Positions 18,204-46,984 of a stretch of DNA of 64,000 bases are shown piece by piece. Where the stretch lies: positions 682,001 to 746,000 of the forward strand of contig OZ237736.1 of assembly GCA_965178125.1 (NCBI GenBank), in the 5' to 3' direction. This DNA is from Bilabrum cf. latius (taxonomy: Eukaryota). Under the pieces are notes generated by a model. It had not been told where the DNA came from. It searched no databases and saw only the letters and a list, made by a program, of their open reading frames with translations. The translations under genes and the position numbers were made by a program. Within the stretch, counting starts at the first letter, position 1. Each line of letters begins with the position of its first letter.

Positions 18204-18567
18204 CTACCCGCCGCCCGCATCCCCCCTCGCCCAGCCCTAGCTGCCGTTCCTGCTCCTACCTCGAGCGAACAGTCCTCCGCTTTGCCGTGTCGCATCTAAT
18301 CCTGCACCTCGAGCGGGTACTGCGCCCAACGCGCGACCTCAATTTCAGAGACCTCATTGGCCTCACGAGTCGCACATTCGTAGCAAAGCGCTACGAACCC
18401 ATGCCGGCCGCCAGCCGAGACAACCGTCTATCATGCTTTGGGGCACTTTCAATCAAGAGTACTGCTACTATCGTTTACATGTCTACCGATGCAGTCCATG
18501 CATAGGTTCGAGTCGCTCGCTGGTGCTCGGCGCAACCTCTACCACTGGCCTGACCTCCACAGACTCA

Positions 18568-18860
18568 TCTCACACACCACATACCAGGGGGACCTCCAAT
18601 TTGGAGGTCCCCCTGGTATGTGGTGTGTGAGAGTAGGGTATTTTTTATGTACATTTTTCTTTTGTTATAAGTAATTCTTTCCATAAAACGGGTAGAGGGT
18701 GGAAATTTAAGTTGCTGAAAAATCATTTTTTTTGCAGGTGAAATTTTCAACTGCCAAAAATTACGCACTGAGTTACACTGCTACGTTTCACATCTCGGGT
18801 TCTATTCCTCTTGCAGAGGAGAGAAATTTGGGGGTCTCCATATTATTCTGCGGGGTCCCC
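18568..18860 (+). repeat. Left terminal inverted repeat (293 bp), outer 65 bp palindromic
   Basis: Reverse complement of 46405-46697; extends ~8 bp further with a 1-nt indel. 18568-18599 and 18601-18632 are 32-bp perfect inverted arms. Confidence 0.95.
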
Positions 18861-18923
18861 CACGCGGGGGATGTTCAAAAATTCATTTAATATTGCATTG
18901 AGAAATCACAGGGATTCTCATTT

Positions 18924-19589
18924 TCATTTTCCATTTTTCACTTTCATTGATTTTAATTTAATTCGCTGTTTCAACGCAGGTGCTGGTTCAGGTGCTGGTG
19001 CTGGTTCAGGTGCTGGTGCTGGTGCTGGTGCTGGTTCAGGTGCTGGTTCAGGTGCTGGTTCAGGTTCTGGTGCTGGTGCCGATCCAGATTCAGATGCTGG
19101 TGCTCCTTCACTATCTACGGTGCCTAGCATTCGTGGTTTAGAAGCATAAGGCTATGCAAAACTATGCAAGTGTTTCATAATGCTCAGCATTTCCGAACGC
19201 TACTTCTTATCCTCCTTCTGCATCTACACCATTGCATCATACTATTTCTATTGCATCTACATCATTGCAAACATCAGTTGCGTTACCTAATTAGGTTCTT
19301 GTGGTGCTGGTGCTGGTGCTGGTGCTGGTGCTGGTGCTGGTGCTGGTGCTGGTGCTTGATCAGGTTCTGCAGTTCCACCAGATTCACAAAGTGGTGATGT
19401 GCCTTCCGGCTACTTCACCACCGCATGAAATGCTCTGATTATGCTATCCGATTTCTTCCCCTCATGCCACCAATCCGTGCCAATATTGGTTTGCATCCAT
19501 TTCTTCATATCATACTCCGAAACAAGTGATTTGTAACCTTTTCCAAAGTGTTTTTGTAAATATTCTCGTGCTTTCTGTGGGTATCTCAT
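18924..19589 (-). CDS. Virophage protein of unknown function (N-terminal domain paralogous to the N-terminus of the methyltransferase fusion; Pro-Ala repeats; Gln-rich coiled coil)
   Basis: MRYPQKAREYLQKHFG..WMQTNIGTDWW; frame contains several TAG (MM*MQ*K*YDAMV*MQK) but no TAA/TGA until TGA 18924. Confidence 0.75.
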
Positions 19590-19702
19590 ACTGATATCCT
19601 CTCCCTTACATGCGCACACGAAATAGGTTCAGGGGAATTCATTTTGTTACCTAAAAGGTTCTGTATACATCTTACTGCCCAATCAAAAAAAAAGTTATTT
19701 GG

Positions 19703-19941
19703 ATGTTGTTCAGAAAAATCTCATGTTGTTCAAAATACTCGGTTTCATAAAAATTTTCAGAACTCAGCCAACTGAAAAAAATATTGATTTTCAATTTTTT
19801 TCTAAGAATGAAAAAATCTCATTTCCTTTGTTTTGAACAACATCCCTACCTTTTCCGACAACAAAACCTTTATTTTGAACAACATTTTGAACAACATAAT
19901 TATTCGTAACCAATTATTTTGAACAACATTTTGAACAACAA
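19703..19941. repeat. Cluster of TGAACAACA iterons in an AT-rich divergent intergenic region
   Basis: Two reverse copies (~19703, ~19723) and five forward copies (~19834, 19876, 19888, 19920, 19932). Confidence 0.7.
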
Positions 19942-20024
19942 CAAATAAATTGATTAATGCAGTTACTGATATCTTATTTATATTAGATTATAGGATTTTT
20001 AAAAAATCCTATAATCTAATATAA

Positions 20025-20648
20025 ATGAATTCGAATTTTAATACATGTCCTTGTTGCCAAAAACCGGTCTCAAATGAAGATCTAATTATTCAACCAGATG
20101 GTACTCACTTTTGGTATAAGAATGGTCAAATACACAGAGATGGTGATCTACCTGCAGTAGTTGGTATGAAGGGTAACTACTGGTACAAGAATGGTAAAAT
20201 ACACAGAGATGGTGATCAGCCCGCAGAAATTACATTAAATGTACGCGGATACTACAAGAATGGTCAATTACACAGAGATGGCGATCAGCCCGCGTACATG
20301 TACAATTCAGAAAATAGAAAATATTGGTATAAGAATGGCGTATTGCACAGAGATGGTGATAAACCCGCAATAATTGAAATAGATGGAGATACAAAATGGT
20401 ACAAGAATGGCAAATTACATAGAGATGGTGATAAATACGCAGTAATTAATGAATATGGAAATGAATGGTACAAGAATGGCGAATTGCACAGAGATGGTGA
20501 TAAACCCGCAATAATTGAAATAGATGGAGATACAAAATGGTACAAAAATGGTAAATTACACAGAGATGATGATAAACCCGCAGTAATTGAAGCATATGGA
20601 CGAAATGAATGGTACAAAAATGGTGTACAATACCATCCATCCATTTAA
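20025..20648 (+). CDS. Virophage repeat protein (WYKNGxLHRDGDxPA, MORN-like beta-hairpin repeats)
   Basis: About seven repeats of WYKNGKLHRDGDKPAII; N-terminal CPCC; ends TAA. Confidence 0.8.
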   Translation: MNSNFNTCPCCQKPVSNEDLIIQPDGTHFWYKNGQIHRDGDLPAVVGMKGNYWYKNGKIHRDGDQPAEITLNVRGYYKNGQLHRDGDQPAYMYNSENRKYWYKNGVLHRDGDKPAIIEIDGDTKWYKNGKLHRDGDKYAVINEYGNEWYKNGELHRDGDKPAIIEIDGDTKWYKNGKLHRDDDKPAVIEAYGRNEWYKNGVQYHPSI

Positions 20649-20733
20649 ACTAGATTGCTTTATAAAAGCTTGGAGCGGAAAAATGAACCGCGTTCACCCT
20701 ATTTCTCGCAGGTATAGGAGGGGGAGTATCACA

Positions 20734-23700
20734 ATGATATACCCTACTAAAGCACATGAATACCTATCAACACACTTTGGAACTGATTACAAAACATTAG
20801 TTTCAGAGGCTACTATAAAGCAGTGGATGCGAACACATATTGGTGCAGATTGGTGGCTTGATTACTTGAAAGCAGATAGCATTATAAAAGCGTATCATGC
20901 GGTGTTGAAGAAGCCTACAAGCTCTTTAACACTAGATGAACCCAAAACTGCTGCTACTGGTGGAGGTGCAAACCCCAAGCCCAGAGTGCAGCTTCGAGCC
21001 AAGCCCAGAGTGCAGATTCGAGCCAAACCCAAACTGCAGCTTCGAACCAAGCCCAGAGTGCAGCTTCGAGCCAAACCCAAATTGCCAGCAGTTTCACTCA
21101 AAAAGATTACAGATAAATCTATAATGCCATAGTATATGAGTTATCTTACAAGCGTTTGCGATAATAATTTAAACAAAATAATCAAAAGTACACCAACATT
21201 AAGGGTTGGAACTGATTGTAGCGGCATCGATGCACCAATCCATGCTTTGAAAATTATGAATGTGCCTTTTCAATACGAATTTGCCTCAGATATTGATGTA
21301 TCAGCTAAGGCTAGTATCAAAGGCAATCATCAACCACGCATGTTCTTTGATGATATTACAACTCGTGATCACACTCTATTACCCAAACTGGATTTGTACT
21401 GTGCTGGATTCCCTTGCCAATCATTCTCAACTTTGGGGAAACGCCAAGGATTCCATGATAGTAAAAACAGAGGCACAGTGTTTTTTCACTGTTACGAAAC
21501 CATAAAACAAACTCAACCACAAATGTTTATTCTAGAAAACGTTAAAGGACTGTTAAGCCATGATAAAGGCAAAACTTTTAAAACAATCATGGATCATCTT
21601 TCAGCATTGAAAGGTTACTATATTCATCACTAGGTTTACAATACGAAATCTTACGGATTGCCACAATCCAGAGATCGCGTTTACATCGTGGGCACTAAAG
21701 GATCGTTTGTTCCACCTAAACCCATTGCTCTACCAATTGGTATCAAAGGATTACTCGAAAAAGGTATCAATGATCCCTACTATTTCAAAACCACCGCTCA
21801 CAAGGAACAATTGATAAAGGATTGTATATCCAATGGCAAAATTGATGATCCCAAGAACGATTGGGTTATGAATTTAAATGTATCATCGTACAAAAGAACT
21901 GGAGCAAAGCTGGGAATATCTCCCTGTTTACTTGCAGGTAGTGGTGGCAACTGCACATTTTTTATCACATCACTCATGCGCAAACTAACACCTGTAGAAT
22001 ACCTAAGATTGCAGGGATTTCCTCCAGATTTTAAGATTTGTGTTAGCAGAGCACAAACATACAAACAGGCAGGTAACGCCATGTCTGTAAATGTTGTGTG
22101 CTTTATAATGAAACAATTGCTAATGGGGCTTGGTGCGAAACCCAAGATCAAGATCAACCCCAAAACCAAAATCTCACTCAAAAAGAAAAAAGGTAAATCT
22201 ATAATGAGCTCCGCAAAATCGAAACCTAAAGAAATACTAGTTAAACCTATAATAACCGATCAAACCGCACAGAAAATGGTTGGTGAATTTGTTAATGCAG
22301 ATCACTACCAGCAGGTAATTGATCATGATTGTGATTGCTACTACTATGATAAATCTGGCAAGCGCCGTGCTTTGTTTTACTTTCGCCGCAAGGTAATCCC
22401 CCAAGCGCATCTGGATACAGCACTAGATAGTTTAAAAACAGAAGCCAAAAGTGCCTCCAATACACGATCCATTGCTGGTGGCGGAATTGGCAAAGGCAAA
22501 GTACACAGCATGATTGTTGGCTACTACGATAAACCCCGAATCAGAGATAAACGAGAAATCTTAGCCAAGAAACTCGTACCCTGCAGAACTACCAGTTATA
22601 CCAGCAAACACCAATCCAAATGGAACAACTTAAAACCATTAATTAATTAGGTTGATAAGGCATACAGCGAGTTCGAACCAGAACGCCATCACGAACAGCA
22701 CGGCATGGCTAAAAAAACTCCCGATTACCAAATCAACGATACTGCATTTTCTACCATCACCGTAAATTACAACTGGCGAACCGCTTGTCACAAGGATTCA
22801 GGTGATTATCACAATGGATACAGTGCTGTAGTAGTTGCCGAGGATGGCAAGAATTCTTACAAGGGCGGATACCTGGGTTTTCCTAAGTTCGGCGTTTGTG
22901 TTGATGTTCGCCACGGCGATTTTATCTTAATAGATCCTCACCAGTTGCACTGTAATACAGAAATAGTGCCAGATGGATCAGATTGGTGCAGATTATCAAT
23001 GGTTTACTACTACCGAGAAAACATGCAAAAATGTACCCAATCCAAACCTTCTTGTGAAGCCGCCTCACAAGAATTAATTGATGTAGTTTTACCCAAACGA
23101 AAACTCGATCTTAAACTCTGGGTTCGCCCCAAAACCACAGATCTTACTGTAATTGGTGAAGTGCTTACCAGGAATTCTTACGATAAACCCAAAGTTAGTT
23201 TCAAAGTGGGATCTACACCCAAGGAGCGATGGCTAGATCTTGGTGCCAATATCGGCACATTCGCCTTACTTGCCTTATCGCGGGGGTGCTCTGTAACCTG
23301 CTATGAACCTGAACGGGATAACCTTGAAATACTACAAAAAAACCTGGAACTCAACTTTCCTAAACCTAGGGGTGGATGGAAAATTGTTGAATCAGGGGTT
23401 TCTACAAAACCCACTGGAACTCAAAAACTCTACCTGTGCAAAGGAGATTACAACAAATACAGGCATACCTTGCATCCCGTAAGAGGGCGTACAACTGTTG
23501 ATATCCCTGTAGAAAATATTTTTGAGGCTTTGGAACGGGCTGATTGCAACTGCATTAAAATGGATATCGAGGGTGCTGAAATCGAGATCCTCGAAACACT
23601 TAAACCAACAACTTACCAACGCCATGGCATCCAAAAACTGGTGTTAGAATATAGTTTTGATGTAGATAGGAGCATCCCCCGATTTCTACGCATCATCGAA

Positions 23701-23805
23701 ACCTTAAAACAAGCCTTTAAAACCGTGTTTTACACCAAAGTAAAGCCAGATCAGGCTACCTATGATTACTTTCCAGCAGCCTGTATGGTATACTGCCAGA
23801 ATTAA
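20734..23805 (+). CDS. Fusion: N-terminal domain + C5-cytosine DNA methyltransferase + TET/JBP-like 2OG-Fe(II) dioxygenase + FkbM-family methyltransferase (~1023 aa; in-frame ATGs also at 20683, 21124, 22204)
   Basis: One frame, TAG only at 21130, 21631, 22648, ends TAA. DNMT motifs TDCSGI, GFPCQSFS, ILENVKGL, GLPQSRDRVY, RKLTPVEYLRLQGFP, YKQAGNAMSVNV. Dioxygenase FSTITVNYNWRTACHKDSGD..HQLHCNT..RLSMVYYYR. FkbM WLDLGANIGTF..CYEP..IKMDIEGAE. Confidence 0.85.
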
Positions 23806-23915
23806 ATCCCATGAAAATTAAAATATTAGTGAAATGCCTAGGCATCTACTCAGAGAAATACATATTTTACTTTTAATCCGTATCAACTTAGTACGGGATT
23901 AAAAGGAAAATTACA

Positions 23916-25127
23916 TTACTTTTTCCACGTAAAAGACCATTTCTTTGTACGTGGGTTCTCTTTCCAAACTACATTATGCTTCTTTTCAAATGCCTAAACC
24001 AGTTTGGGCACATCTTCGATCATGTTTTCATAGCTGTTCCACTCTGGAACCTTGTATCCAACCCATCGAACCACAAATCCACGCTCCCCATTAACCACAC
24101 TAGGGCGCACAATACTCGAAATAATATACTAATCTGGCAAAGAAATTGGATTTTCAACCTCACCCACCTTCTGCAATTCCTCTGTAAAATATCTGGTTGG
24201 CAAACCTTCTACCTGATACGACCACGGGCTCCACGGCATACGCGGTTTTAACACCTATCGTACTGTATACACATCCTTAGACCAGTTTTCACCCCTTTTC
24301 TCATTAGATCCCCATCGCAATCGAACCCTTACTTGATCGCCCACTTTGAACCGCTACTCATTGGCACGTTCACCTGCATTTTTCTTTATTCTTTTTCTAA
24401 CTGCATCCACCCCAGAACTCTGTTTGTTCTCCAGATACTCCCTCTCTAAATTATCTGGCGATTGCTTGGTTGTATTTTGTGGCGTTTGATTGTATACCCT
24501 CAAATAGGCTGCCAAACTATTATCCCAGTTATTCACACCCGAATCCAAACGATCTGCCTTAATCATTCTCTTAATTGTTCCATTAAATCGCTCAACCAAA
24601 CCATTTGTTTGCGGCTTACCCGCTGTACTCAAGATCTATTTAATTTTCTTGCTTTTCAAAAACGCTTTGAATGCCCGATTAACAAACTCACTGCCATTAT
24701 CACTCTACAACACACTGGGTGGCTGGGGCATCTACTCTAAGATTTGTTTCAAAGCATTCAATACGGTTTGCTCTCGCTTATCGGGCATAGCAACTGCGTA
24801 AGCTTTCTTACTAAAACCATCAATGGCTGTAAGCAACCATTTCATGCCTCGTGGGGTTTCCGATGAACTCAAATCCACCAAATCTATTTGCAACTTTTTA
24901 AAAGGAGCACTAATTACCTAGCGTTTAATTGAACGAACTTTCTTGGTTGGTTTTAGCATCTACCATGTTTCTTGCCGTTGAAGAAAATCTCTAACCACAC
25001 GCCGTGGCAAATCAATGCCGTTTAACACTGCCAATTTGTATAAACGCTCCTCTCCAACAAAGGCTTTTGAACCATAATATAACTCTTTCAACTTCTATAA
25101 TTCACGTTGCTGATGCTTTGTATCCAT
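23916..25127 (-). CDS. Retroviral-type (rve) DDE integrase with C-terminal chromodomain-like region, 403 aa
   Basis: LQIDLVD, LLTAIDGFSKKAYA, VL(TAG)SDNGSEF, QTNGLVERFNGTIK, FKVGDQVR, FVVRWVGY..EWNSYENM; about ten in-frame TAG; ends TAA 23916. Confidence 0.9.
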
Positions 25128-25176: not shown

Positions 25177-26037
25177 ATGCTTAAGCGAAAGCAAATTTTA
25201 CAATTACTGAAGATAGCCAAGAAACGCAACCCAAGGATCAAAAAATGTGTTAAGGGGTACGGAAAGTTTACCAAATCGCAATTACAAGCCGTTCTTGAGG
25301 CTCCTATGGTATTAGAAACTCTTGAACCTGAAGTTACCAGAATGGGTGGCTCACTGTTTGGCAAGTTTCGCCAAGGTTTTAACCAAGTTGTTGATAAGGC
25401 TAAGAACTTCTTTGGAGTTGATACTAAGAACTTTAATAAAACTAGCTAGCGAACACTAAAAGAATACGGTAACCGAGTTATTACCCAGATGAAAGTAGCA
25501 CGAACACCCTTAAGTTCAAGTTTAAATCGATTGCTAAACGTTCTTTCACTAGGGGCAACTAAACGAGCCAAACAAAGCTTATAGTACCATTCATTCTACC
25601 ATCTTGCAATAGCAGTAAAATTACAAGGCGTTGCTACCCCCCTTGTGGTTGAGAAAAACGAGGCTGTTAACGTTGATAAAACATTCCCCGTAAATAATCT
25701 TACTCAATTCCTAAACGTTGATCTAAATGGCAAACAAATCACTTTGAATCAACTGGTACAACAAACACTCAAATCCGTGGGCAATAATCGATTTTTCTTG
25801 TATCGTGCTTTCAATGATCGCTCAGATGCAGGTAATTGTTAGCGATTTGTTACTGATGTACTTCGATCCAATGGTTTATTAACCAGCCAATTGGATCAAT
25901 TCATCAATTAGAATGTTGAACAGGCAGCATCTACCATACCGCAGTTGTTTAAAAGGGTGGCAAATGTTGCAACCGATGTTGGTGCATTCGCTAATCGAGT
26001 AGTTGGTAGAGGTAAGAAGAAAAAGAAATAGCATTAA
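25177..26037 (+). CDS. Virophage protein with permuted papain-like (PPPDE/NlpC-P60-type) H...NCQxF motif, 286 aa
   Basis: Single frame via TAG; RTPL..LNVLSLG..FYHLAI..EKNEAVN..FFLYRAF..GNC(TAG)RFVTDVL; ends TAA. Confidence 0.6.
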
Positions 26038-26291
26038 GGCATGCTTGCTGCCAACAATTCACATATACTCTGCTTGTTCAGTGAATCCCAAGTCATAGTA
26101 ACCACTACCTTGTAAGCGGGTTCATCACCACCTGCACCTGAATGCGGCACTTGCTCAATCTTAACATCAGTACGATAGTTTGATGTGGGATCGGATTCAG
26201 GTTCAGGTTCTGGTTGAGAATTACGAATAATCTCTATTTTAGGTTGAGGTGTTGTTGGAGTTGGTTTAGTTGGGCTAGATTTTTCAGACAT
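26034..26291 (-). CDS. Small virophage hypothetical protein
   Basis: ATG to TAA, 85 aa, stop overlaps the convergent gene stop. Confidence 0.55.
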   Translation of the reverse strand: MSEKSSPTKPTPTTPQPKIEIIRNSQPEPEPESDPTSNYRTDVKIEQVPHSGAGGDEPAYKVVVTMTWDSLNKQSICELLAASMP

Positions 26292-26357
26292 CTATAACTA
26301 TCTGGAGGATTTTTTTTAAGTTAACTTTGTTTCGTTATTACTACCAAATAAAGTTAA

Positions 26358-34385: not shown

Positions 34386-34417
34386 AATAATTATCCATAC
34401 TTAAGTTATAACAAAGT

Positions 34418-36622: not shown

Positions 36623-36630
36623 TTTCTATT

Positions 36631-36707: not shown

Positions 36708-36732
36708 ATCCTGTTTTTAAAATACATGAATA

Positions 36733-37515: not shown

Positions 37516-37590
37516 TTCTATAATATATCCTATATTTTTTAATTCATTTTTTTAAAAAATAGTTTAAGAACTTTCCTAACTCTATACTAT

Positions 37591-38281: not shown

Positions 38282-40873
38282 ATGCAAATTTCGATAACCG
38301 ATTTAGTAAAACCTCTACCTGTGGGATCAACAGTACAAACAAAAATTGTAGTGGATGTAAAGCGCTCCAAAATGGTGGAAAAGCATCTCAACCGTATTTT
38401 GTTTTCTTTAATGGCAGGATCAGATCTGGTAGATATTCGAGCCGAAATTACCAAAACCCAGAATATCTTGAAACGGCATATCGGGCGATCAAAAAAAGCA
38501 ACCATCAATCGAAAGGTGGATTTTACATGCACTAGAGGATTCGGGCGGTTTTACAGTGATGATGGGTTTGTAAATATTACACGACCGATTAGGCATTTCT
38601 TATGCCGAGATAATTACATTGATCTTGATGTTTGTAACTGCCACCCTGTTATTGCTGAACAGTTGTACCCGGTTTTAACTAACAAACCTTCAGTTGCCAT
38701 TAAGAGGCTAAACAATGAACGCAAGCGCATATTTGCCGAATTCTTAGAGGATCACAAATTACCCAAGGATAGCATCAAGAAACTAGGATTTGCTTGTTTA
38801 TACGATGGTAGCATTTAGGGTACTGCAAAACAAATTGGAATCGAGGATCTTCAAGAGCTCACTCACAGATGCAAACAAAACTACGATTTATTTGTTAAAG
38901 CCAAACGGGAGTTTGCTGAAATCATGCAGCATGTAAAACAAATAATGGGTTCTGATTGGGAGTTGTTACCTTGTAATCCCGGTAAAGAAAATACTGATAG
39001 AGCCGATGTAGGCAAACTTTCAAGTTTCTTTCAGCACATTGAACGGTAGATAACCGAGCATATTGCTTTCATTCTGAATGGTAAGTTTAAGTGCAAGGTG
39101 GCTGATTATTAGTACGATGGCGTGTTTTTGCGTGATGTTTAGAGCAAAACGGTAAACACATGGATTCCAGCTATCGAACAGTTCATCTATGAAAAGACAG
39201 GTTTCCGAGTAAAACTGGAAACAAAACGAATGGAAAACTATCAAGTGGATGCTATTTTAGAATCCGATCAAGAAGCACCTGTACCCAAAGAGGTTTAGGA
39301 TTACTTGGATGAAAAAGAACAGCAGGTAATTAAGCATATTGAAAGTAACAATCCTTTTGATCCGTTCTTTCATAATTCGATGGATACAGAACGTGTTCCG
39401 ATAAAACTACATAGCATCATGGATTACAGTAAATTAAACAAGTTACGATAGTAGTATTTCGAGAACTTTTGTGTAAAGATAGAAAATCCTGCGATGTTTG
39501 TACGTGTTTTTCCAGAATCAGGAGATGCTGTAACTATCAATCGCCAAAATCTGTTAGTTAGTTTTGAGAACTTACGGCATGGCAATAAAAACCAACCTTG
39601 GATTACCGAATGCTGGTTAAAATCAGCCTCTATCAAAACCTACACGAAAACTACGTTTGTACCATACACTATCAATCCGCCACCTAACCACATGGTAGAA
39701 AACAAATTCAACATGTTTAAGGGATTCATGCATTCAGTAACACCACCTGATAACTTCAAGATGGATCAAACCAAAATCCAGCCGATTCTAGATCACTTGC
39801 ACGATATTTGGTGTGGTGGTGATTAGATGTGTTACAAGTATATTCTTGATTGGATGGCATCGATTGCTCAAACACCATGGAAAAAATCCTTGGTGGCTGT
39901 TGTTTTGGTTTCAATCAGAGAGGGTGCAGGTAAGAATTCAATCATGGAGTTTTTGAAAGAACATGTGTTTGGCAATTAGTACATTCGTGATGTGAGTAAC
40001 ATTAATGATTTAACCAGATAGTTTAACATGGACGGAATGAAAACCATCTTTACAGTTTGCAATGAGATTGGATCACAGGGTGGTGCTTACCGAAATGCAG
40101 ATTCCTTAAAGGATATGATTACTCGCAAAACGCAGCGGATTGAAACCAAAGGAGTAGATCCAATTCAAATGAGCTGTTTTAATAATTTTATGCTCACATC
40201 ACAGTATTGGAAATGGGTCGCCAAGATTTCCAGTAGTGATCGCAGGTACTTTTGTTTAGATGCAGATAACAAACGATGTAACGATGTTGATTATTTCACT
40301 AATCTGTTTAAGTTTTTAACTCCTGAATCAGGCAAACATTTTTGGTATTACCTGTTATCCCGTGATCTTTCAACAGTAAACCTAAGAAATATTCCAATGA
40401 CTGATTTAAAGCGTGATATGGCATCCTTGAGCTATGATCCATTCATTAAAACGCTGATTGAATTAGAAAATCAAAGAGCTGATGGAGAAGATCGATTTAC
40501 GGCTCAAGAATTAATGCTGTTATACAATCATGTAAATGAACGGGATAGCATAAAATCTACCAGATCGTTTAGTAAACAATTCAAGAAATGGAGCAATGAT
40601 TTCTTTAAGGTTTGCTAGATTGGAAAAACACGAACTAGGGGGTTCTTAATTACACCCGAGGGCAACCTTGAATTGATCAGGTAGGTGCTGAAAGATCCTG
40701 TTTGGTATTTTCCTGATGCCCCTGAAAATGAATATGAAGTACCCGAACCTAAATATGATGATAGGGAGGAATCCAAGCAATCAGAGCCTGTTACTGTTAT
40801 GGTTAAACCTAAGATTCAAGTAAAAGTTCAAAGAGTATATTCTAAGCTTCCAAAGGATATCTGTTTGATTTAA
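38282..40873 (+). CDS. TVpol-type primase/polymerase fused to D5-like SF3 helicase, 863 aa
   Basis: GRFY..IRHFLC..YIDLDVCNCHP, FQHIER, Y(Q)YDG in the N-terminal part; VVLVSIREGAGKNS, VCNEI, SDRRYF in the helicase; one frame via TAG; ends TAA. Confidence 0.8.
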
Positions 40874-41405: not shown

Positions 41406-41672
41406 CCATTAAATTTTCACGCATTTTAAAACCCAAATATTTCCCTGTATGAGTACACAGAGAGCGTGATTTTAGCGAGTATCTCTGTATTAATTTAAAT
41501 GCACTTAATACGGAATAAATCTTAGAAATCATGAAATCGTTTGATCGTGGTTTGGGGGGAAAATTGATCCGTGTTCACCCTATTTGTCGAGGCATGGTAA
41601 GAGGGGGGATTCGTTTTCGGACAACAATAGGTTTTCTTTGCAAAAAGAGGACCTCTGAAAAGCATTCCTCTA

Positions 41673-41709: not shown

Positions 41710-42963
41710 ATGGAAGAAACACGAAAACTAACTGAATGGATTAGGGTGGGTTACTCGGGGTTGAGTTCGAAAACCATCAACAATAAGCTGGGCACGGCTC
41801 GTAACTCGATTGTGCCTTTCTTGGAGCAGCATGGTTTGAGCCTAGAGCACCCGATCCCCAAGGGTGCAGATGAGAAGCGGTACTACGAGCTGCTTCGAAC
41901 TTTCGCTGAAACGCGCCCAAGGAAATCCACATGCCCCACTAAGAGCACTAGCCACTCCCGTTAGGTGATAATCTAGAGGGAGGTGCAGAGCATGAGTTCG
42001 ATCCTGAAGCAGTACATGGCAACTCACGGAGGATCGGATGAGCAGGTGCAGATGATGGGGATGGTGAGCAAGGTGAGTTATGATAAGGCAAAGGAGGCGA
42101 GTGTGGCAAAAAACACGGTACTCAAACCCGCACCGCCGATTTCCTTGAAGTTGGCAGTGGAGCGATTCGCAGCCAAATCGGTGGCGAGTGTGGATCAGCC
42201 GTGGATGTACTGCCTGATGTATGCTATCCTGCATGTAGCCCCCTTCCGAGCCAAGGTGCTGTAGGCAACCACGATCAATGGGGATGGCTTGAGTAACATT
42301 AGCACTGCTGATAGGGTTTGGAACATTGCGGTGGGCACGGACAAGGGCAAGAGTTCGGGTGATAAGGAGGAGCGTGTGGTGACGATCTCGGCACGGATGG
42401 CGGAGTTGCTGGAACGGCACTACAAGGCAGGTGATCATTTGATTCCTCTCACGGTTAGCCACAAGAGGCGGGTGAAGGAGTTTGGAGCAACCATGAAGGG
42501 GATTAGTATGGCATTGGTGGGTGTGGAGGTGAGTGCATCGGTGTGGCGAGAGATAGCCTGTACCAATCACTACAACTAGCCCAGCCCCCTGACCGACGTG
42601 CAGTTGAAGCACGTGGCATCGATCATGGGGCATTCGGTAGGCACCTCGCTCACGTACAAATCGTACTCGATCGGTGCGGATTAGGTGATTCCGTGTGGGT
42701 TGCTGGCATCCCCCGAGCCAGAGCCCAAGCCCAAGCTCAAGCCCAAACTCAAGCCCAAGCTCAAGCTCAAGCTCAAGCTCAAGCTCAAGCTCAAGCTCAA
42801 GCCCAAGCCAGTGATTCGATTGAAGTCCAAGATCAAGCCAGTGATTCGATTGAAGCCAAAGGCGCAGCTGGTGGTGGGAACGGGTGCTGGTGTGCTGAGT
42901 GGGTTGAGTGAGGAGCAGATGCGTGTGGCACTGGCAGCCTTGAAGGCAATGAAAGCAATGTAA
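41710..42963 (+). CDS. Tyrosine recombinase with basic (KL)n C-terminal tail, 417 aa
   Basis: APFRAKV (Arg), DKGK (Lys), SVWRE (Arg), VASIMGHSVGTSLTY (His, Tyr); five in-frame TAG; ends TAA. Confidence 0.75.
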
Positions 42964-43093
42964 ACAAACTAAATGAATAAAACAAAACGAAGGGCCCTCA
43001 TCTATGGTAGTGATACCATGGGTGTTGTGCCCTTTTTTTTGGCCTCAGAATTTAGTATCTAACCGAATAAACGAAACATGCTCTAGAGATCAA

Positions 43094-43642
43094 TCACCCA
43101 TGGCGAGGGTGGGGGCAATCCACGAAGGTAGCCATCATATCTTTCTTCTGCAACTTTGCCCTGAACACAGCAATGGAGCAACTCTCCTTATCCTTCAAGA
43201 ACTTCTACAACCGCCGAAACTAGGCTCGGGTTCGATCGCTCTTGATGAACTTGGGGAGCTCATCCATCTCGTACTTCTCTAGGGTGCGGTGATCCCGCAA
43301 GAAGGGCTTTAAATCCTGCCACTTGCTCCACGCCACCTCCTCCTCCTCGATCGGCGGCAACGCCCAAGTTACCCGCTTGGTGCCCTTGCGGCTCATCCAG
43401 AACCGCCGCCCCAACCCGAGCTCCTCCAGCAGCACCCGCCGCTCCTTTACATCCCGAGGCACTCCCTCCTGCTCACCCTCTTCCTGCACATCTCCCTCCA
43501 GCAAGAACCCCGTAGCATCACCATCCAACCAGTGGCGGATGGCAAGAGGGCACTTGAGAGGAGGCACAGGTGCAGGTCGAGCGCAGCAGCCCAAAAAACA
43601 CATCAGATCCCCAAACAGGAAAGGGGGCAGCGATGGGATCAT
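43094..43642 (-). CDS. Hypothetical protein in the GC-rich arm
   Basis: ORF 43220-43642 extends through two TAG to TGA 43094; its ATG overlaps the TGA of the upstream gene (ATGA). Confidence 0.5.
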
Positions 43643-44487
43643 TCGAAGCCCCCCACCAGTTTTCCCGAGGTGGGATCACGGCGGCGGTGCTTCTTGGATG
43701 GGCGCCCACGAGAGGGGGCGCGTTTGGGCTTGGGTGAATCTGGATCCACCACAGCCACCTCCTCATCGCTCTCACTCTCGACGATGGTGTGCTTGGGTTT
43801 GCGCTTCGTGGCACGCCCCCTTGATGGCTTGGGCTTGGGCTTGGGCTGCGGCTCCTCCTCTTCGGATTCCCCCACGATGTCGGGCACGAAATCCTCTGGG
43901 CGGCGGCTGCTGTTGCTGCGGTTGGATACCACAGAGAGGGCTAGATCGTCGATGGCAACCTTGATCTGATCCACACGGGGGTTCTTCACGGCCTTGACCA
44001 CCTCTTGGATGATGCGTAGTTGCTCCCGTAGCTTGGAGGCATCGCCCTTGTGGCGGGTAAGGGTGTGGTAATCTCCCTCGAGATCCTGCTTGTCGCTCTC
44101 GTTGAGGCTCATGCCCTTGATCTTGTCGGAGAACTTGGTGAGATCGTTGAGGTGCTCGGCGAACACATCCCTTCTTTGGAAGCGCTTAGCGATGGTTTTG
44201 ATCTCCTTATCCCGATCGGTGAGGCGCTTGCGCATGCTGTCCTCCTCGTTGGCCATCATTTGCAGCAGCTGCAGCCGAATGGGTTTGGGCACAGCGAACA
44301 GAGCTTGTCCCAGAAGGTGTAGTGCCTGATCCTTGATGTGTGCCATAGCCGATTCCTGCACACGTTGGAGAGTGGGCGCGAGCTTCTGGGCGAGCCAGAA
44401 GGCACCAGCAGCCATGGCGCTGATGCCCGAGGAGTTGAGCAGCGCGGGAAACCCCTCCCCAGAAACGAAGAGTGAAGCCACGTACAT
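43639..44487 (-). CDS. Protein with hydrophobic N-terminus, coiled coil and basic tail (~282 aa)
   Basis: MYVASLFV..SAMAAGAFWLAQKL, helical middle region, KPKPK/RGRPSKK tail; start inferred. Confidence 0.55.
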   Translation of the reverse strand: MYVASLFVSGEGFPALLNSSGISAMAAGAFWLAQKLAPTLQRVQESAMAHIKDQALHLLGQALFAVPKPIRLQLLQMMANEEDSMRKRLTDRDKEIKTIAKRFQRRDVFAEHLNDLTKFSDKIKGMSLNESDKQDLEGDYHTLTRHKGDASKLREQLRIIQEVVKAVKNPRVDQIKVAIDDLALSVVSNRSNSSRRPEDFVPDIVGESEEEEPQPKPKPKPSRGRATKRKPKHTIVESESDEEVAVVDPDSPKPKRAPSRGRPSKKHRRRDPTSGKLVGGFE

Positions 44488-44627
44488 GCTGTGATGGAAG
44501 GTGGGAAAGGGTATGGATGGATAGATAACGAGCAAAAATTGTTGGGGCAGCCAAAGGTAGGAGAGCAAAGTAGGGGTGCGTGCAGCTCGATCTAGCCATA
44601 GGGCGGCAGGATTGCACCATTCAAAAC

Positions 44628-44858
44628 TTACATGAAATTGATGATAGCTGAAACGCCTAGCCCGGCAGGCAGCATTTTGGCTCCATTGGGTATGAATCGG
44701 AGAAGCCAATACACCACGCTGCCGATCGAGGCAGTGCTCCATAGCGCCGTAACAACCCTTTCTTCATCGAGTAGTTCGGCGTACATGGGGGTAAAAGTCT
44801 GGAACATTGCAACTGGCCGCGGGGTATCCTCGAACTGGGTAACGCCGGTGCCGACCAT
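44628..44858 (-). CDS. Possible small membrane protein, 76 aa
   Basis: Two hydrophobic stretches (VVTALWSTASIGSVVYWLL; MLPAGLGVSAIINFM); ends TAA. Confidence 0.35.
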   Translation of the reverse strand: MVGTGVTQFEDTPRPVAMFQTFTPMYAELLDEERVVTALWSTASIGSVVYWLLRFIPNGAKMLPAGLGVSAIINFM

Positions 44859-44876
44859 GCGAGAAATGGCGCGGGG

Positions 44877-44923
44877 GACAGGCGTGAGTCCGTTGCGACA
44901 GGCGTGAATCCGTTGCGACAGGC
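44877..44923. repeat. 20-bp tandem repeat (about 2.3 copies) between divergent ORFs
   Basis: GACAGGCGTGA(G/A)TCCGTTGC twice plus GACAGGC; extra TGCGACAGGC at ~44954. Confidence 0.7.
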
Positions 44924-45038
44924 TCGTATCGCAACCGAAATCTGGTTTTCTCATGCGACAGGCAGCAGTACCAAGGGACGGAGGCAACTTGCAGTATCCT
45001 TTCCCGCCTTTGTTTGAAAGATAATAGTGTAATAAAGC

Positions 45039-45788
45039 ATGGATGCAGCAGGCGATGGTGAGAAAGCAGTGGCAACAGCAGGGGATACCAGTGCAGTTGC
45101 TCTGCCTCCCAAGCACCCAGCAGGGGCTTCTAGCAAGAAGCAGCCATCCGCCGCCATCGGTGCACCAGTGGATAGTGGCACAGATAGTTACGATGAGTTT
45201 ATCGGGCAGTTGCACCGCGGGATTTCACGCGAAGGAGCAGGAGAGGCGCCCACTGCCATGGCGCCAAGCAGAGCAGCGCAACCCTCGATTGAGGGGGGGC
45301 AGCCTTTAGCGGCAACCGCGGGGGAGGAATCAGCAAAGGAACATGCTTCTGAAGCAGATCCTTCGATCAGTGATCATGTTGTATTGCCCCGAGAGGCAGC
45401 AAGTGGAGCGGGGGCGGGCGCAGCTGCACTCGCTGCCTCACATCGATCTCGAGAGCGTGGCAAACCTAAGGTAAAGGTAACAAGGGCAAGGAGTAAGCGA
45501 GGTGCTGTATTACAATGGGGTTTCACTGAGGCGGTAATGATTGTGCATGCCCTGCGCTTCGGCTCTCCGATGGTGGACGGGTGGCTGCCAGAGCATGCGC
45601 CTGGCGATCAAACCATGGAGCCTGAATTGGATCGGAGGAGGATGCACAAGCAATTAGATCGGTTGCTTGATGGTTTGAACCTCTATATTGGCGAGGCAGC
45701 AGCGGTGCCTACCAGCGATCCCGCAGTGGTGGATGATCAGGAGATTCCAAATGCGATGGACGCAGAGAGCTTGGGTAGGATTGAATGA
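45039..45788 (+). CDS. Ala-rich hypothetical protein, 249 aa
   Basis: ATG after an AT-rich spacer, ends TGA. Confidence 0.5.
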   Translation: MDAAGDGEKAVATAGDTSAVALPPKHPAGASSKKQPSAAIGAPVDSGTDSYDEFIGQLHRGISREGAGEAPTAMAPSRAAQPSIEGGQPLAATAGEESAKEHASEADPSISDHVVLPREAASGAGAGAAALAASHRSRERGKPKVKVTRARSKRGAVLQWGFTEAVMIVHALRFGSPMVDGWLPEHAPGDQTMEPELDRRRMHKQLDRLLDGLNLYIGEAAAVPTSDPAVVDDQEIPNAMDAESLGRIE

Positions 45789-45892
45789 ATGAACGAGCAG
45801 AATTTTGTTATCAATCCATCACTCGATCCGAAACCCTGCCAAGTACGACTGCCAATCAGCGAATCAGTGTGGCAGCACGGCGCCAAAGCCAA

Positions 45893-46315
45893 TCACAGCT
45901 CCTCAATGATGGCGGGGGGATCTTCCTCGCTTGGATCAGCAGCCATTCCCCAGCTGCGCTTTGGAACTTTAGGTACATCGCGCTTGATCACGGTACTGGG
46001 TTCCAGAACGGCGTTGAGGATGGCGGTAATGCACATCGGCTTGGGCTTTCGCGCGGGTAGCGTTTGCAGCCACAGCGAGAAGGTAGTTTCTCCGCCGAGC
46101 TCTTCGTACTTATCAACTAGATCTTGGTACGAATCAATGCCGTGGGTGTGCAGCGCCTTGAACAGCTTGCCCTTCATGCCTCCGCGTAGGCAATCGATTG
46201 CATTGAGCGGTGGCGGATCGCTTGTGCTGTACCGCTGCACCTTGGTAGCGAGTACCCCAGTGCATGCGAATGTTGAAGCGATCACAAGCAGGAAACTAAT
46301 GCCCCGAGAAATCAT
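45893..46315 (-). CDS. Hypothetical protein with possible BAF-like helix-hairpin-helix domain
   Basis: IDCLRG..KLFKALHTHGIDSYQDLVDKY..FSLWLQT pattern; hydrophobic N-terminus; ends TGA. Confidence 0.4.
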   Translation of the reverse strand: MISRGISFLLVIASTFACTGVLATKVQRYSTSDPPPLNAIDCLRGGMKGKLFKALHTHGIDSYQDLVDKYEELGGETTFSLWLQTLPARKPKPMCITAILNAVLEPSTVIKRDVPKVPKRSWGMAADPSEEDPPAIIEEL

Positions 46316-46404
46316 TCTTGCTGATTAATTTGTGCGGTAAACGGCGGTGCGGGATGAGCGAACTCACAGAGAACCTTCCCCAGATCGGCGCTCCCCTCCC
46401 GCGT

Positions 46405-46697
46405 GGGGACCCCGCAGAATAATATGGAGACCCCCAAATTTCTCTCCTCTGCAAGAGGAATAGAACCCGAGATGTGAAACGTAGCAGTGTAACTCAGTGC
46501 GTAATTTTTGGCAGTTGAAAATTTCACCTGCAAAAAAAATGATTTTTCAGCAACTTAAATTTCCACCCTCTACCCGTTTTATGGAAAGAATTACTTATAA
46601 CAAAAGAAAAATGTACATAAAAAATACCCTACTCTCACACACCACATACCAGGGGGACCTCCAAATTGGAGGTCCCCCTGGTATGTGGTGTGTGAGA
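46405..46697 (-). repeat. Right terminal inverted repeat (293 bp), outer 65 bp palindromic (46633-46697)
   Basis: Reverse complement of 18568-18860, followed by the TSD ACTCA. Confidence 0.95.
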
Positions 46698-46984
46698 ACT
46701 CAGACCCCATAGCTGATTGAATCCGACAGAGTCTTCGCTTGTCATCGCTCGTTCTGGTCGATACCTGGGAAGGTTGGTTGCATAGGCACGCTAGACTGGC
46801 AGCCTCGCAACTAGAGCTCGGCTGGCTCCTGGGCTGCTGTAGGGTTGGCTTGTCTTCATCGTCACGATGTTCTTGGAGCCCATCGAGAACTCTGCAGATC
46901 GATGATAGGCCTGTGCCAATCTTTCGGACATTTCCGTGTGATCAGACATGCATAGATAAAATGAGTACCATGTTTCACGGATTA

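What the first reader, a model, noticed from the sequence alone, without database searches (positions are those of the whole stretch)
18563..46702. Complete, recently integrated endogenous virophage invisible to standard-code annotation
Seen: matching 293-bp TIRs, perfect 5-bp TSD ACTCA, intact ATPase-protease-penton-MCP genes with no frameshifts noticed, and an rve integrase with catalytic D,D,E. Known: Mavirus and EMALEs integrate by rve integrase with short TSDs and can reactivate upon giant-virus infection to protect host populations. Inference: a potentially reactivatable provirophage of a distinct lineage (28 kb, TVpol-helicase instead of pPolB).
Basis: partly seen in the sequence, partly recalled or inferred. 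Interest (0 to 1): 0.85.

Follow-up and report, generated by a model that had tools for sequence, protein, structure and literature searches.

The report
Integrated virophage written in UAG=glutamine code
This is an intact-looking, mavirus-like virophage genome inserted in the chromosome of a GC-rich microbial eukaryote, and its genes read the stop codon TAG as glutamine as the host's genes do; it is a new lineage of a known kind of element.

Summary
There are perfect 293-bp terminal inverted repeats (18568-18860 and 46405-46697). A 5-bp duplication, ACTCA, flanks a 28,130-bp insert that has about 40% GC in a host of about 59% GC. Read with TAG=Gln, the insert has a tightly packed gene set: packaging ATPase, cysteine protease, penton, major capsid protein (MCP), a DDE rve integrase with a chromodomain-like tail, and a D5-like helicase protein. 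No pPolB was found. The MCP and penton match the solved mavirus capsid proteins (2.4e-33 and 5e-15). The MCP model superposes best on mavirus, then on Sputnik, and far less well on giant-virus capsids. It therefore meets the sequence-based criteria tested for a virophage and is not Polinton-like. It is a distant lineage: the best full-length MCP match among 1.84 billion representatives is 30% identical.

- The TVpol domain could not be confirmed.
- The last 4.6 kb inside the right repeat (about 41.75-46.39 kb) has host-like composition and codon usage. It is an acquired or recombined module, so the element is a composite.
- Public contigs show sibling copies about 2% divergent. One form lacks the C5-methyltransferase cassette.

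Reactivation and the junctions remain untested. Verdict: new member of a known kind, of moderate interest.

The parts
18563..18567 (.). Left copy of the target-site duplication ACTCA
   Evidence: Read directly; identical to 46698-46702.
18568..18860 (+). Left terminal inverted repeat (293 bp). Its outer 65 nt (18568-18632) is a perfect palindrome.
   Evidence: 100% complementary to 46405-46697. pair I1 shows the palindrome in the right copy. DNA hairpin -40.5 kcal/mol, z -14.1.
18924..19589 (-). ORF of 221 aa, function unknown. Its N-terminal ~60 aa are paralogous to the N-terminus of the methyltransferase fusion. PA/PE low-complexity repeats.
   Evidence: shared upstream motif.
20025..20648 (+). 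MORN-like repeat protein (207 aa)
   Evidence: Repeats WYKNGxxHRDGDxPA seen. Pfam MORN_2 gives 21.2 bits, below the cut-off.
20596..23805 (+). Fusion protein: N-terminal domain, C5 cytosine DNA methyltransferase, TET/JBP dioxygenase and FkbM-type methyltransferase. The likely start is at 20683 or 20734.
   Evidence: Pfam PF00145 7.8e-60, PF12851 1.6e-24, PF05050 1.5e-7. M.HhaI 1.1e-35. The TAGs lie inside domains. A variant copy lacks 20980-22142.
23916..25127 (-). rve-family DDE integrase with a chromodomain-like C-terminus (403 aa)
   Evidence: PF00665 2.2e-19. D/D/E aligned to PFV and Ty3 integrases. Chromo 19 bits, E 0.0013, below the cut-off. Homologues carry PF00385.
25177..27686 (.). 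Two ORFs of unknown function: 25177-26037 (+) and 26358-27686 (-)
   Evidence: Open with TAG=Q; no family found.
27713..28735 (+). P-loop packaging-type ATPase (340 aa)
   Evidence: Walker A and B invariant in alignment A5. phrog_2666 6e-8. Pox_A32 E 0.0047, below the cut-off. 27% identical to genes next to PRO-PEN-MCP in L002 and L003.
28769..29242 (+). ORF of 157 aa, function unknown, between the ATPase and the protease
   Evidence: no family found.
29273..29815 (+). Cysteine protease (180 aa) with conserved His61, Asp78, Gln125 and Cys134
   Evidence: Alignment A3 with homologues from L001-L003. tblastn 1.9e-22 to 3.4e-19. No Pfam, PHROG or PDB sequence hit.
29844..30752 (+). Penton (minor capsid) protein (302 aa)
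   Evidence: PDB 6g41_A 'Minor capsid protein' 5e-15.
30784..32511 (+). Virophage-type double jelly-roll major capsid protein (575 aa, 9 in-frame TAG), with a disordered C-terminal tail of ~90 aa
   Evidence: PF22031 MCP_V20_C 4e-15. 6g45_A 2.4e-33 and 3j26_A 1.8e-9. Model pLDDT 82.9. Foldseek: mavirus MCP TM 0.79-0.80, Sputnik 0.72, PBCV-1 about 0.45-0.54.
32535..33428 (+). Conserved virophage ORF (297 aa), function unknown
   Evidence: 24-31% identical to ORFs beside the ATPase in L002 and L003.
33433..37878 (.). Accessory ORFs. They include a SET-domain protein (34418-34792 +), a Gly/Ser-rich ORF (34833-35483 -), a conserved virophage ORF (35531-36151 +) and five small ORFs.
   Evidence: SET PF00856 3e-5, 24.8 bits, above the cut-off. 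The 35531 ORF is 29% identical to an L003 ORF. Others.
23862..23913 (.). One of three related hairpin elements placed after gene 3' ends (the others are 36627-36678 and 37150-37196)
   Evidence: pairs I2 and I3. Folds have z -5.8, -3.5 and -3.2. Position relative to ORF ends.
38282..40873 (+). Replication protein (863 aa). The C-terminal half is a D5-like (DUF5906) helicase. The N-terminal 430 aa are unassigned.
   Evidence: PF19263 5.6e-12. phrog_1156 'DNA primase' 1.3e-16. The N-terminus gave nothing; one search gave leads only.
41560..41620 (+). Third copy of a ~55-nt motif (core GTTCACCCTATTT) that also precedes ORF 18924-19589 and the methyltransferase fusion
41710..46392 (.). GC-rich module of host-like composition inside the right arm. 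ORFs: 41710-42963 (+; 5 in-frame TAG; tyrosine-recombinase-like motif by eye only), 43094-43642 (-), 43639-44742 (-) and 45039-45788 (+).
   Evidence: GC steps from about 0.39 to about 0.54 at 41.7-41.8 kb. GC3 0.49-0.73 against 0.27-0.46. Codon-usage log ratio +0.22 to +0.27 against -0.22 to -0.80. No family found. No similarity to flanks or virophage body.
46405..46697 (-). Right terminal inverted repeat
   Evidence: One run-X3 contig leaves the TIR inner end with the right-arm sequence (table 7, place 18860).
46698..46702 (.). Right copy of the target-site duplication ACTCA

Best explanation
The insert is the integrated genome of a mavirus-like virophage (class Maveriviricetes). Shown: a linear dsDNA element of 28,130 bp with identical 293-bp TIRs lies between two host genes and is flanked by a 5-bp duplication. 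It encodes the virophage morphogenesis set (ATPase, protease, penton, MCP), a DDE rve integrase and a D5-like helicase protein. All are written in the host's UAG=Gln code. Inferred: its own integrase, probably steered by the chromodomain-like tail, joined the two TIR ends to staggered cuts 5 bp apart, which made the duplication. Inferred by analogy with mavirus and EMALEs: the provirus stays silent until a compatible giant virus infects the cell. Its short AT-rich upstream regions are then read by the giant virus transcription machinery, the genome replicates through the helicase protein, and particles are assembled. The element is a composite. A 4.6-kb right-arm module with host-like GC and codon usage was gained from the host genome, or from another GC-rich element resident in the same host, because it too contains in-frame TAG. 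The element also carries a methyltransferase-TET/JBP-methyltransferase fusion that would modify cytosines in DNA. Related copies exist in the same organism's sequencing data.
For: TIRs are 293/293 identical and the TSD is ACTCA on both sides. The GC drop matches the insert. MCP: Pfam MCP_V20_C 4e-15; mavirus MCP 6g45_A 2.4e-33 and Sputnik V20 1.8e-9 by sequence. Fold model pLDDT 82.9. Best PDB fold matches are mavirus MCP (E 3e-39, TM 0.79-0.80) and Sputnik (1.5e-29, 0.72), then a gap to PBCV-1 (1e-12, about 0.45-0.54). The first two BFVD matches are virophage capsids and mavirus is fifth; rank 3 is labelled adintovirus and rank 4 carries no name. Penton: mavirus minor capsid 6g41_A 5e-15. Integrase: PF00665 2.2e-19 and DDE aligned to solved integrases. 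Three IMG/VR contigs share some or all of integrase, ATPase, protease, penton, MCP and two further ORFs at 23-38% identity. L003 has the order ATPase-protease-(extra ORF)-penton-MCP. Protease H/D/Q/C are invariant and ATPase Walker A/B are invariant. Code: 19 of 22 virophage ORFs hold in-frame TAG, and 26 of 26 ORFs examined end in TAA or TGA. In the integrase, 7 of 10 TAG sites are Q in the 81%-identical homologue, and conserved columns are Q in 24, 17 and 18 of 29 homologues. No ORF of the size expected for pPolB (about 600 aa by recall) other than the two large assigned ORFs exists, and neither hits a polymerase B family. Sibling copies: run-X3 and run-X5 contigs cover the element with 2-3% differences. 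One contig per run joins 20979 to 22143 with 8 other letters between.
Against: No contig listed bridges either host-element junction, so integration rests on this assembly plus the TSD logic. No test of expression, excision or giant-virus dependence was possible. No helper-virus promoter motif was identified. TATA occurs within 30 nt upstream in 16 of 22 genes against 10% of random windows, but the background is mostly coding sequence. ATPase and protease match no curated family above threshold. MCP placement within the class was not resolved because no named reference sequences were available for a tree. The third-ranked BFVD match is labelled adintovirus. Passages of Roux et al. 2023 seen say some 'adintoviruses' are misfiled virophages. 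The origin of the GC-rich module is unproven, and its left boundary was not checked against reads.
Confidence: 0.85

Rival explanations
1. It is a virophage-derived fossil or a domesticated insert. It is structurally intact only because it is young, is epigenetically silenced, and can no longer form particles or respond to a giant virus.
For: No expression data exist. The chromodomain-like integrase tail and the insertion about 200 bp from a highly repeated host sequence (18289-18366; that bin reaches word depth 742 in run X3) would fit heterochromatic, silenced sites. The right arm has been remodelled by 4.6 kb of host-like DNA. This may have displaced a terminal gene, because a promoter-like motif at 41560-41620 has lost the paralogous coding region that follows it at its other two sites.
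Against: All 22 virophage ORFs are open, although 97 TAG codons and low GC make random frames short. TIRs are identical. Several near-identical but distinct copies exist, as expected of an active family. In Cafeteria such elements are reported to be active (PMC10945749, title and start of abstract only).
Confidence: 0.2
2. It is an autonomous Polinton-like or Tlr1-like virus-transposon that spreads without any giant virus. It is a 'virophage' only by capsid ancestry.
For: rve integrase, TIRs and a short TSD are shared with Polintons. No giant-virus promoter motif was recognised. Dependence on a helper cannot be read from sequence. Integrated Polinton-like elements that use their host's deviant code are known in Streblomastix strix (PMC10120064, passage).
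Against: MCP and penton are of the virophage type, not the Polinton type. There is no pPolB. Shared genes and a similar capsid-gene order link it to virophage-like contigs. Genes have very short AT-rich upstream regions and no introns were seen in ORFs that are each uninterrupted, unlike host-type nuclear genes. This fits expression in a cytoplasmic virus factory.
Confidence: 0.1
3. The composite structure is an assembly artefact. The GC-rich 4.6 kb, or the whole placement between the two host genes, results from mis-joining at the repeated TIRs.
For: TIRs, multiple sibling copies and a nearby host repeat are the features reported to break assemblies of such elements (PMC8547959 passage; PMC10120064 passage). 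Contigs stop at 18329-18366.
Against: The same 5-bp duplication sits at both ends, and the flanking genes are neighbouring members of one tandem host family. This is what a single true insertion predicts. A run-X3 contig runs from the TIR inner end into the GC-rich sequence (loose end at 18860), although that run may be the assembly's own data. The GC-rich ORF 41710-42963 follows a virophage-specific upstream motif.
Confidence: 0.05

Closest known systems
Mavirus and the endogenous mavirus-like elements (EMALEs) of Cafeteria burkhardae, especially the 'mid-GC' EMALE types
   Same: Low-GC insert in a GC-rich host. TIRs (EMALEs 0.2-2.3 kb) and short TSDs (EMALEs mostly 3-5 bp, mavirus 5-6 bp). 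rve integrase. ATPase-protease-penton-MCP block. MCP and penton are closest to mavirus among solved structures. Like mid-GC EMALEs it lacks pPolB, has a long primase/helicase ORF and may carry a tyrosine recombinase next to it. Several diverged copies per genome. Foreign GC-rich DNA nested in the element (in Cafeteria, Ngaro retrotransposons). EMALE facts come from PMC8547959 passages.
   Different: The MCP model aligns to mavirus MCP at 20-22% identity, and the best full-length MCP match in any library searched is 30% identical. Genes are written in a UAG=Gln code. The element is 28.1 kb against a maximum of 21.5 kb for EMALEs. There is an extra ORF between ATPase and protease. It carries a methyltransferase-TET/JBP-methyltransferase fusion and has terminal 65-nt palindromes. 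The nested GC-rich module shows no reverse transcriptase.
Sputnik-like virophages
   Same: Virophage-type MCP fold (3j26 TM 0.72). No pPolB. A helicase-containing replication protein.
   Different: Sequence similarity is much weaker (1.8e-9 against 2.4e-33 for mavirus). Sputnik uses a tyrosine integrase and has no rve integrase (recalled). The Sputnik-type TV-Pol domain was not demonstrated here.
Polintons/Mavericks and Polinton-like viruses, including integrated elements of Streblomastix strix that use TAA/TAG=Gln
   Same: Integrating double jelly-roll viruses with rve integrase, TIRs and short TSDs. The S. strix case is a precedent for an integrated small DNA virus adopting its host's deviant code (PMC10120064 passage).
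   Different: The capsid genes here are of the virophage type. There is no pPolB. Only TAG is reassigned, while TAA and TGA terminate.
Metagenomic virophage-like contigs L001-L003 (IMG/VR)
   Same: They share chromodomain-rve integrase, protease, penton and MCP, and L002 and L003 also share the ATPase and further ORFs, at 23-38% identity. L003 has the same capsid-gene order.
   Different: They use the standard code (frames open under table 11) and are 17.7-21.2 kb. They match neither DUF5906 nor pPolB. They lack the DNA-modification fusion and the GC-rich module.

Membership tests
Maveriviricetes (virophages sensu stricto; criteria as in passages of PMC9952930) | Virophage-specific major capsid protein (the main criterion) | tested here: met
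   PF22031 above its cut-off. Mavirus and Sputnik MCP matched by sequence and by fold. The ICTV HMM classifier itself was not available.
Maveriviricetes | Virophage-type penton protein | tested here: met
   6g41_A mavirus minor capsid protein 5e-15 over residues 28-297.
Maveriviricetes | FtsK-HerA family packaging ATPase | tested here: inconclusive
   It is a P-loop ATPase with conserved Walker A and B. Pox_A32 gives E 0.0047, below the cut-off. phrog_2666 gives 6e-8. Homologues lie beside PRO-PEN-MCP in L003. The family-level assignment did not reach a curated threshold.
Maveriviricetes | Adenain-like maturation cysteine protease | tested here: inconclusive
   29-30% identical to the gene between ATPase and penton in L001-L003. 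His, Asp, Gln and Cys are invariant. No curated family or solved relative matched. Reading the motif as the clan CE catalytic set is recalled knowledge.
Maveriviricetes | dsDNA genome of 15-45 kb | tested here: met
   28,130 bp between the TSD copies; about 23.5 kb without the GC-rich module.
Maveriviricetes | Replication dependent on a giant virus (phenotypic criterion) | not testable with these tools
   No helper virus sequence is in the window. No RNA data were available.
Mavirus/EMALE-type provirophage | rve-family integrase with catalytic D, D, E | tested here: met
Mavirus/EMALE-type provirophage | TIRs flanked by a short target-site duplication in host DNA | tested here: met
   Junctions are not independently bridged by the contigs listed.
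Mavirus/EMALE-type provirophage | [quoted passage not shown] | tested here: not met
   There is no polymerase B family hit in any ORF scanned, and no unassigned ORF over 600 aa. Mid-GC EMALEs also lack it, so this excludes only the mavirus/low-GC subtype.
Polinton/Maverick | pPolB together with a Polinton-type capsid | tested here: not met
   No pPolB. The MCP is of the virophage type.
   PF19263 5.6e-12 at residues 543-642. phrog_1156 1.3e-16.
   There is no Pfam hit at E up to 10, no PDB sequence hit and no homologue other than itself. The single-sequence model has pLDDT 35. The Atlas gave only unnamed viral clusters and one cluster with D5_N in 31% of members. Motifs seen by eye are compatible but are not a test.
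Tyrosine recombinase (ORF 41710-42963) | Recognisable recombinase catalytic domain | tested here: inconclusive
   No Pfam or PHROG family at E <= 0.01. A motif resembling the C-terminal His...Tyr box was seen by eye only. Further outward searches with this protein were not made.
UAG=Gln nuclear code with UAA and UGA as stops | In-frame TAG at positions where homologues have Gln; TAA and TGA terminate | tested here: met
   The MCP alignment was too divergent to decide. No suppressor tRNA gene lies in the window.

The most novel reading that the evidence does not exclude
This may be the first virophage lineage found to be locked into a UAG=glutamine genetic code. TAG makes up 97 of 357 glutamine codons in the virophage genes, twice the host's share. 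The element could therefore not be expressed in a standard-code cell. Its unknown helper giant virus must share the same code-restricted host range, so the code becomes a natural label for finding that giant virus. On the same reading, the methyltransferase-TET/JBP-methyltransferase fusion actively hypermodifies cytosines of virophage or helper DNA, and the perfect 65-nt terminal palindromes serve as hairpin telomeres that replace protein-primed end replication.
Probability: 0.3. Interest if true: 0.75.

Novelty: new member of a known kind. Interest (0 to 1): 0.55.

Why it matters
Endogenous virophages are candidate heritable defences of protists against giant viruses, but well-resolved examples come from very few hosts. 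This one extends the phenomenon to a host with a rare nuclear code. TAG=Gln with TAA as a stop was called unprecedented when it was described in 2017 (PMC5304391 passage). The element also shows that standard-code pipelines cut such elements into fragments. The public protein collections hold 80-84-aa pieces that are 91% and 69% identical to this MCP. The code gives a practical handle: any giant-virus contig from this host that also needs TAG=Gln is a candidate helper. The composite right arm and the sibling copy without the methyltransferase cassette illustrate cassette-level mosaicism in these viruses.

Tried and rejected
- **MCP homologues by word index:** none found.
- **MCP in IMG/VR by patterns from the single protein:** none. 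A 50-sequence alignment was too variable to search with. A 7-sequence alignment gave 4 loci.
- **MCP by tblastn in the phage collection:** no match.
- **Names for the 10 MCP relatives looked up:** none on record.
- **TAG identity from the MCP alignment:** undecidable because columns are too variable. It was settled with the integrase.
- **tRNA and Rfam scans of the window:** nothing.
- **Whole genome:** not held, so no copy census was possible.
- **Protease:** no PDB, Pfam or PHROG hit.
- **Helicase protein N-terminus:** no hit in the PDB sequence search. The homologue search returned only the protein itself. The Atlas gave leads only. The fold model had pLDDT 35 and was not searched. There was no Pfam hit and no IMG/VR relatives.
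- **GC-rich module:** no Pfam or PHROG family. The Atlas gave no usable hit for ORF 43642-44742. There is no similarity to host flanks or virophage body and no flanking repeats that would mark a nested transposon.
- **Earlier findings of this scan:** nothing to show.
- **Sequencing runs:** no RNA holder was listed, so nothing can be said about expression.
- **Run X6:** contigs cover the host flank 14000-17966 without differences, but nothing of the element apart from a low-complexity bin. No contig joins across the insertion site, so this is not evidence of an empty allele.
- **Word depths:** host-flank contig 47.5; element contigs 97-134 in run X3. They hint at about two extra copy-equivalents, but the tool states that such depths are not copy numbers.
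- **Promoter motifs:** the mimivirus-type AAAATTGA motif (recalled) was absent from the 22 upstream regions. TCTA was only mildly enriched, 7 of 22 against 10% of random windows.
- **Literature:** no paper in the library held virophage, endogenous, UAG and glutamine together. Other searches found only the S. strix Polinton-like precedent.
- **Supplements:** those of PMC8547959, PMC10120064 and PMC9952930 were not seen. They may list this host or related elements.

Full report
**1. The observation**

The two repeat arms, 18568-18860 and 46405-46697, are 293 nt long and 100% complementary. Immediately outside them the host sequence reads ACTCA on both sides, at 18563-18567 and 46698-46702. The flanks have GC 0.55-0.63. 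The insert drops to 0.36-0.44 between 18.6 and 41.7 kb.

Under the standard bacterial table the insert holds only short frames. With TAG read as glutamine it resolves into 22 closely spaced ORFs between 18.9 and 40.9 kb.

**2. The genetic code**

- In-frame TAG occurs in 19 of the 22 virophage ORFs and in 21 of all 26 ORFs examined.
- All 26 ORFs end in TAA (17) or TGA (9).
- The integrase has ten TAG sites. Seven are Q in its 81%-identical homologue P0154.
- At the conserved integrase columns, homologues have Q in 24, 17 and 18 of 29 sequences.
- The MCP alignment was too variable to decide.

Host ORFs in the flanks also need TAG as a sense codon. Examples are a SelO, a Sir2 and a protein kinase gene.

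Summing, TAG is 97 of 357 glutamine codons in the virophage genes. In host frames it is 59 of 408 (rough, stop-to-stop frames).

A nuclear code with UAG=Gln but UAA as a stop was called unprecedented when reported for Iotanema (PMC5304391, passage). No tRNA gene lies in the window.

**3. What the element is**

*Major capsid protein (30784-32511)*
- It passes Pfam's threshold for the Sputnik V20 C-terminal domain (4e-15).
- By sequence it matches the solved mavirus MCP at 2.4e-33 and Sputnik V20 at 1.8e-9.
- An AlphaFold model built on 50 sequences has pLDDT 82.9.
- The model superposes best on mavirus MCP (E 3e-39, TM 0.79-0.80) and then on Sputnik (TM 0.72). A wide gap separates these from PBCV-1 Vp54 (TM about 0.45-0.54).
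- In the viral model library the first two matches and the fifth (mavirus) are virophage capsids. One is labelled adintovirus and one carries no name. Passages of PMC9952930 state that some adintovirus records are really rumen virophages.

*Other core genes*
- The penton matches the mavirus minor capsid protein at 5e-15.
- The integrase has PF00665 (2.2e-19). Its D, D and E align with those of foamy-virus and Ty3 integrases.
- The integrase C-terminus gives a full-length but sub-threshold Chromo match (19 bits). Homologues carry PF00385.
- The ATPase and protease match no curated family above threshold.

*Relatives in IMG/VR*

IMG/VR contigs L001-L003 were found with a small MCP alignment. They encode homologues of the integrase, protease, penton and MCP. 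L002 and L003 also encode homologues of the ATPase and of the ORF at 32535-33428, and L003 of the ORF at 35531-36151. Identities are 23-38%. L003 has the order ATPase, protease, an extra ORF, penton, MCP.

In those alignments the protease keeps His61, Asp78, Gln125 and Cys134. The ATPase keeps Walker A and B.

**4. How distant it is**

Of 1.84 billion representative proteins, 243 match the MCP at E <= 0.001. The best full-length match is 30% identical (5.3e-55).

Two short public fragments, 80 and 84 aa long, are 91% and 69% identical. They may be what standard-code gene calling leaves of close relatives.

The window's own helicase protein is present in the collection as a full TAG=Q translation (P0274). 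The window's own MCP and integrase did not appear in their searches.

**5. Replication module**

ORF 38282-40873 carries a D5-like helicase domain (PF19263 5.6e-12; phrog_1156 1.3e-16).

Its first 430 residues matched nothing:
- PDB sequences
- homologues
- Pfam at E up to 10
- IMG/VR

The single-sequence fold was unusable (pLDDT 35). The Atlas offered only leads. The 'TVpol' label therefore remains a guess.

No pPolB exists. Only two ORFs exceed 600 aa and both are otherwise assigned.

According to passages of PMC8547959, the 'mid-GC' EMALEs of Cafeteria likewise lack pPolB. They have a longer primase/helicase ORF and carry a tyrosine recombinase beside the rve integrase.

**6. The right arm is a composite**

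- At 41.7-41.8 kb GC steps from about 0.39 to about 0.54. It stays near 0.56 up to the inner edge of the right TIR.
- The four ORFs there have GC3 of 0.49-0.73, against 0.27-0.46 for the virophage genes.
- Their codon usage is host-like, +0.22 to +0.27 log2 per codon. Five held-out virophage ORFs score -0.22 to -0.80.
- Two of the four ORFs contain in-frame TAG, so the source also used this code.
- The module matches no family. It resembles nothing else in the window. It has no flanking repeats of its own.

The first ORF of the module (41710-42963) lies directly downstream of the helicase gene. It shows, by eye only, a motif resembling the C-terminal box of tyrosine recombinases.

It is preceded by the third copy of a ~55-nt motif (core GTTCACCCTATTT). 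The same motif precedes ORF 18924-19589 and the methyltransferase fusion.

The most likely origin is capture of host DNA or recombination with another GC-rich resident element. A passage of a 2026 preprint (10.64898/2026.10.13.758929) reports that tyrosine recombinases go with PolA/AEP-type replicases in such viruses. That would fit the module being a swapped-in part of the replication-integration module.

Because one TSD flanks the whole 28,130 bp, either the composite integrated as a unit or the module arrived after integration. The data do not decide between these.

**7. Evidence from public runs (all are contigs)**

- Runs X1-X4 of 'organism A' hold 94-95% of the sampled words of 13601-23600.
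- In run X3 a 32-kb contig covers the host flank up to 18329. It stops in a host repeat at 18289-18366.
- No listed piece bridges the junction.
- Several element contigs in run X3 differ from the window. One has 67 differences in 2972 nt over the integrase region.
- One contig each in runs X3 and X5 joins 20979 to 22143 with eight other letters between. This removes the C5-methyltransferase domain.
- The organism therefore holds at least one sibling element without that cassette.
- A loose end at 18860 in run X3 continues with the sequence that lies inside the right TIR. This supports the TIR-module junction.
- Run X8 ('organism D') matches host genes at about 90-95% identity. It has a 1139-nt contig that differs from the methyltransferase cassette at 32 positions over 21040-22131.

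**8. Other features**

- *Terminal palindromes.* The outer 65 nt of each TIR is a perfect palindrome. It folds as a DNA hairpin at -40.5 kcal/mol, z -14. No occurrence of 'palindrom' or 'hairpin' is in the main text of PMC8547959.
- *3' hairpins.* Three related hairpin elements lie just after gene 3' ends. They recall the hairpin-dependent 3'-end formation of mimivirus transcripts (recalled).
- *Upstream regions.* Intergenic spacers are short and AT-rich. TATA occurs within 30 nt of the start in 16 of 22 genes.
- *DNA-modification fusion.* The fusion (PF00145 7.8e-60, PF12851 1.6e-24, PF05050 1.5e-7) has an M.HhaI-like methyltransferase (1.1e-35). TET dioxygenases and methyltransferases are already noted as common in these viruses (passage).

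**9. Insertion site**

The insert lies between two members of a tandem family of five host genes. It is about 360 bp upstream of the start codon of one gene and about 280 bp downstream of the stop codon of the next. No host gene is interrupted.

**10. Verdict**

This is a real, structurally intact, integrated virophage of a distant mavirus-like lineage. It is written in its host's UAG=Gln code and carries an acquired GC-rich right-arm module.

It is a new member of a known kind. Integrated small DNA viruses that use a host's deviant code have a precedent in Polinton-like elements of Streblomastix (PMC10120064 passage). I found no report of a virophage doing so. Supplements were not seen.

Activity, dating of the insertion, junction confirmation and the nature of two domains remain open.

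Noticed in passing
window 9822-13115, 16206-18338, 46985-49207, 50164-52689, 54149-57289 (all minus strand): Five tandem host genes share an N-terminal domain of about 120-170 aa (28-45% identity) followed by long low-complexity tails. No Pfam family was found. The virophage sits between the second and third gene.
   Followed up: partly
whole window, host flanks: The host itself reads TAG as a sense codon while TAA and TGA appear to terminate. The genome has about 59% GC and long uninterrupted ORFs, suggesting few introns. This is a rare nuclear code. The host was not identified.
   Followed up: partly
window 18289-18366: A short host sequence about 200 bp from the insertion site is highly repeated in the runs. 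Its bin reaches word depth 742 against 47.5 for the flank in run X3, and many contigs end there. It has no Rfam or tRNA match and no second copy in the window.
   Followed up: partly
window 18568-18632 and 46633-46697: The outermost 65 nt of each TIR is a perfect palindrome (stem of 31-32 bp; -40.5 kcal/mol as DNA). These could be hairpin telomeres or an integrase binding site.
   Followed up: partly
window 23862-23913, 36627-36678, 37150-37196: Three copies of a related hairpin element lie just downstream of gene 3' ends, two of them between convergent genes. They are candidate transcript 3'-end signals.
   Followed up: partly
window 19590-19650 (minus), 20680-20733, 41560-41620: A ~55-nt motif (core GTTCACCCTATTT) occurs three times. 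Twice it lies directly before paralogous N-terminal coding regions. The third copy lies about 100 nt before the first GC-rich ORF.
   Followed up: partly
window 20979-22143: The C5-methyltransferase domain behaves as a cassette. One contig each in runs X3 and X5 lacks these 1163 bp, with 8 other letters in their place. A run from a related organism (X8) has a contig differing from the cassette at 32 positions over 21040-22131, although its host genes match at only about 90-95%.
   Followed up: partly
window 20596-23805: A C5 DNA methyltransferase, a TET/JBP dioxygenase and an FkbM-type methyltransferase are fused in one 1069-aa frame with no TAA or TGA between them. This would be a one-protein pathway for cytosine modification.
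   Followed up: partly
window 38282-40873 (P0274): The public protein collection already holds this window's helicase protein as a full-length TAG=Gln translation. The window's own MCP and integrase did not appear in their searches, and relatives of the MCP appear only as 80-84-aa fragments.
   Followed up: no
window 18924-19589, 26358-27686, 33753-34385, 42700-42860: Several element ORFs carry PA, PE or KP/KL dipeptide repeat tracts. The 26358-27686 tract varies in length between copies: a variant contig lacks 18 bases at 26947.
   Followed up: no
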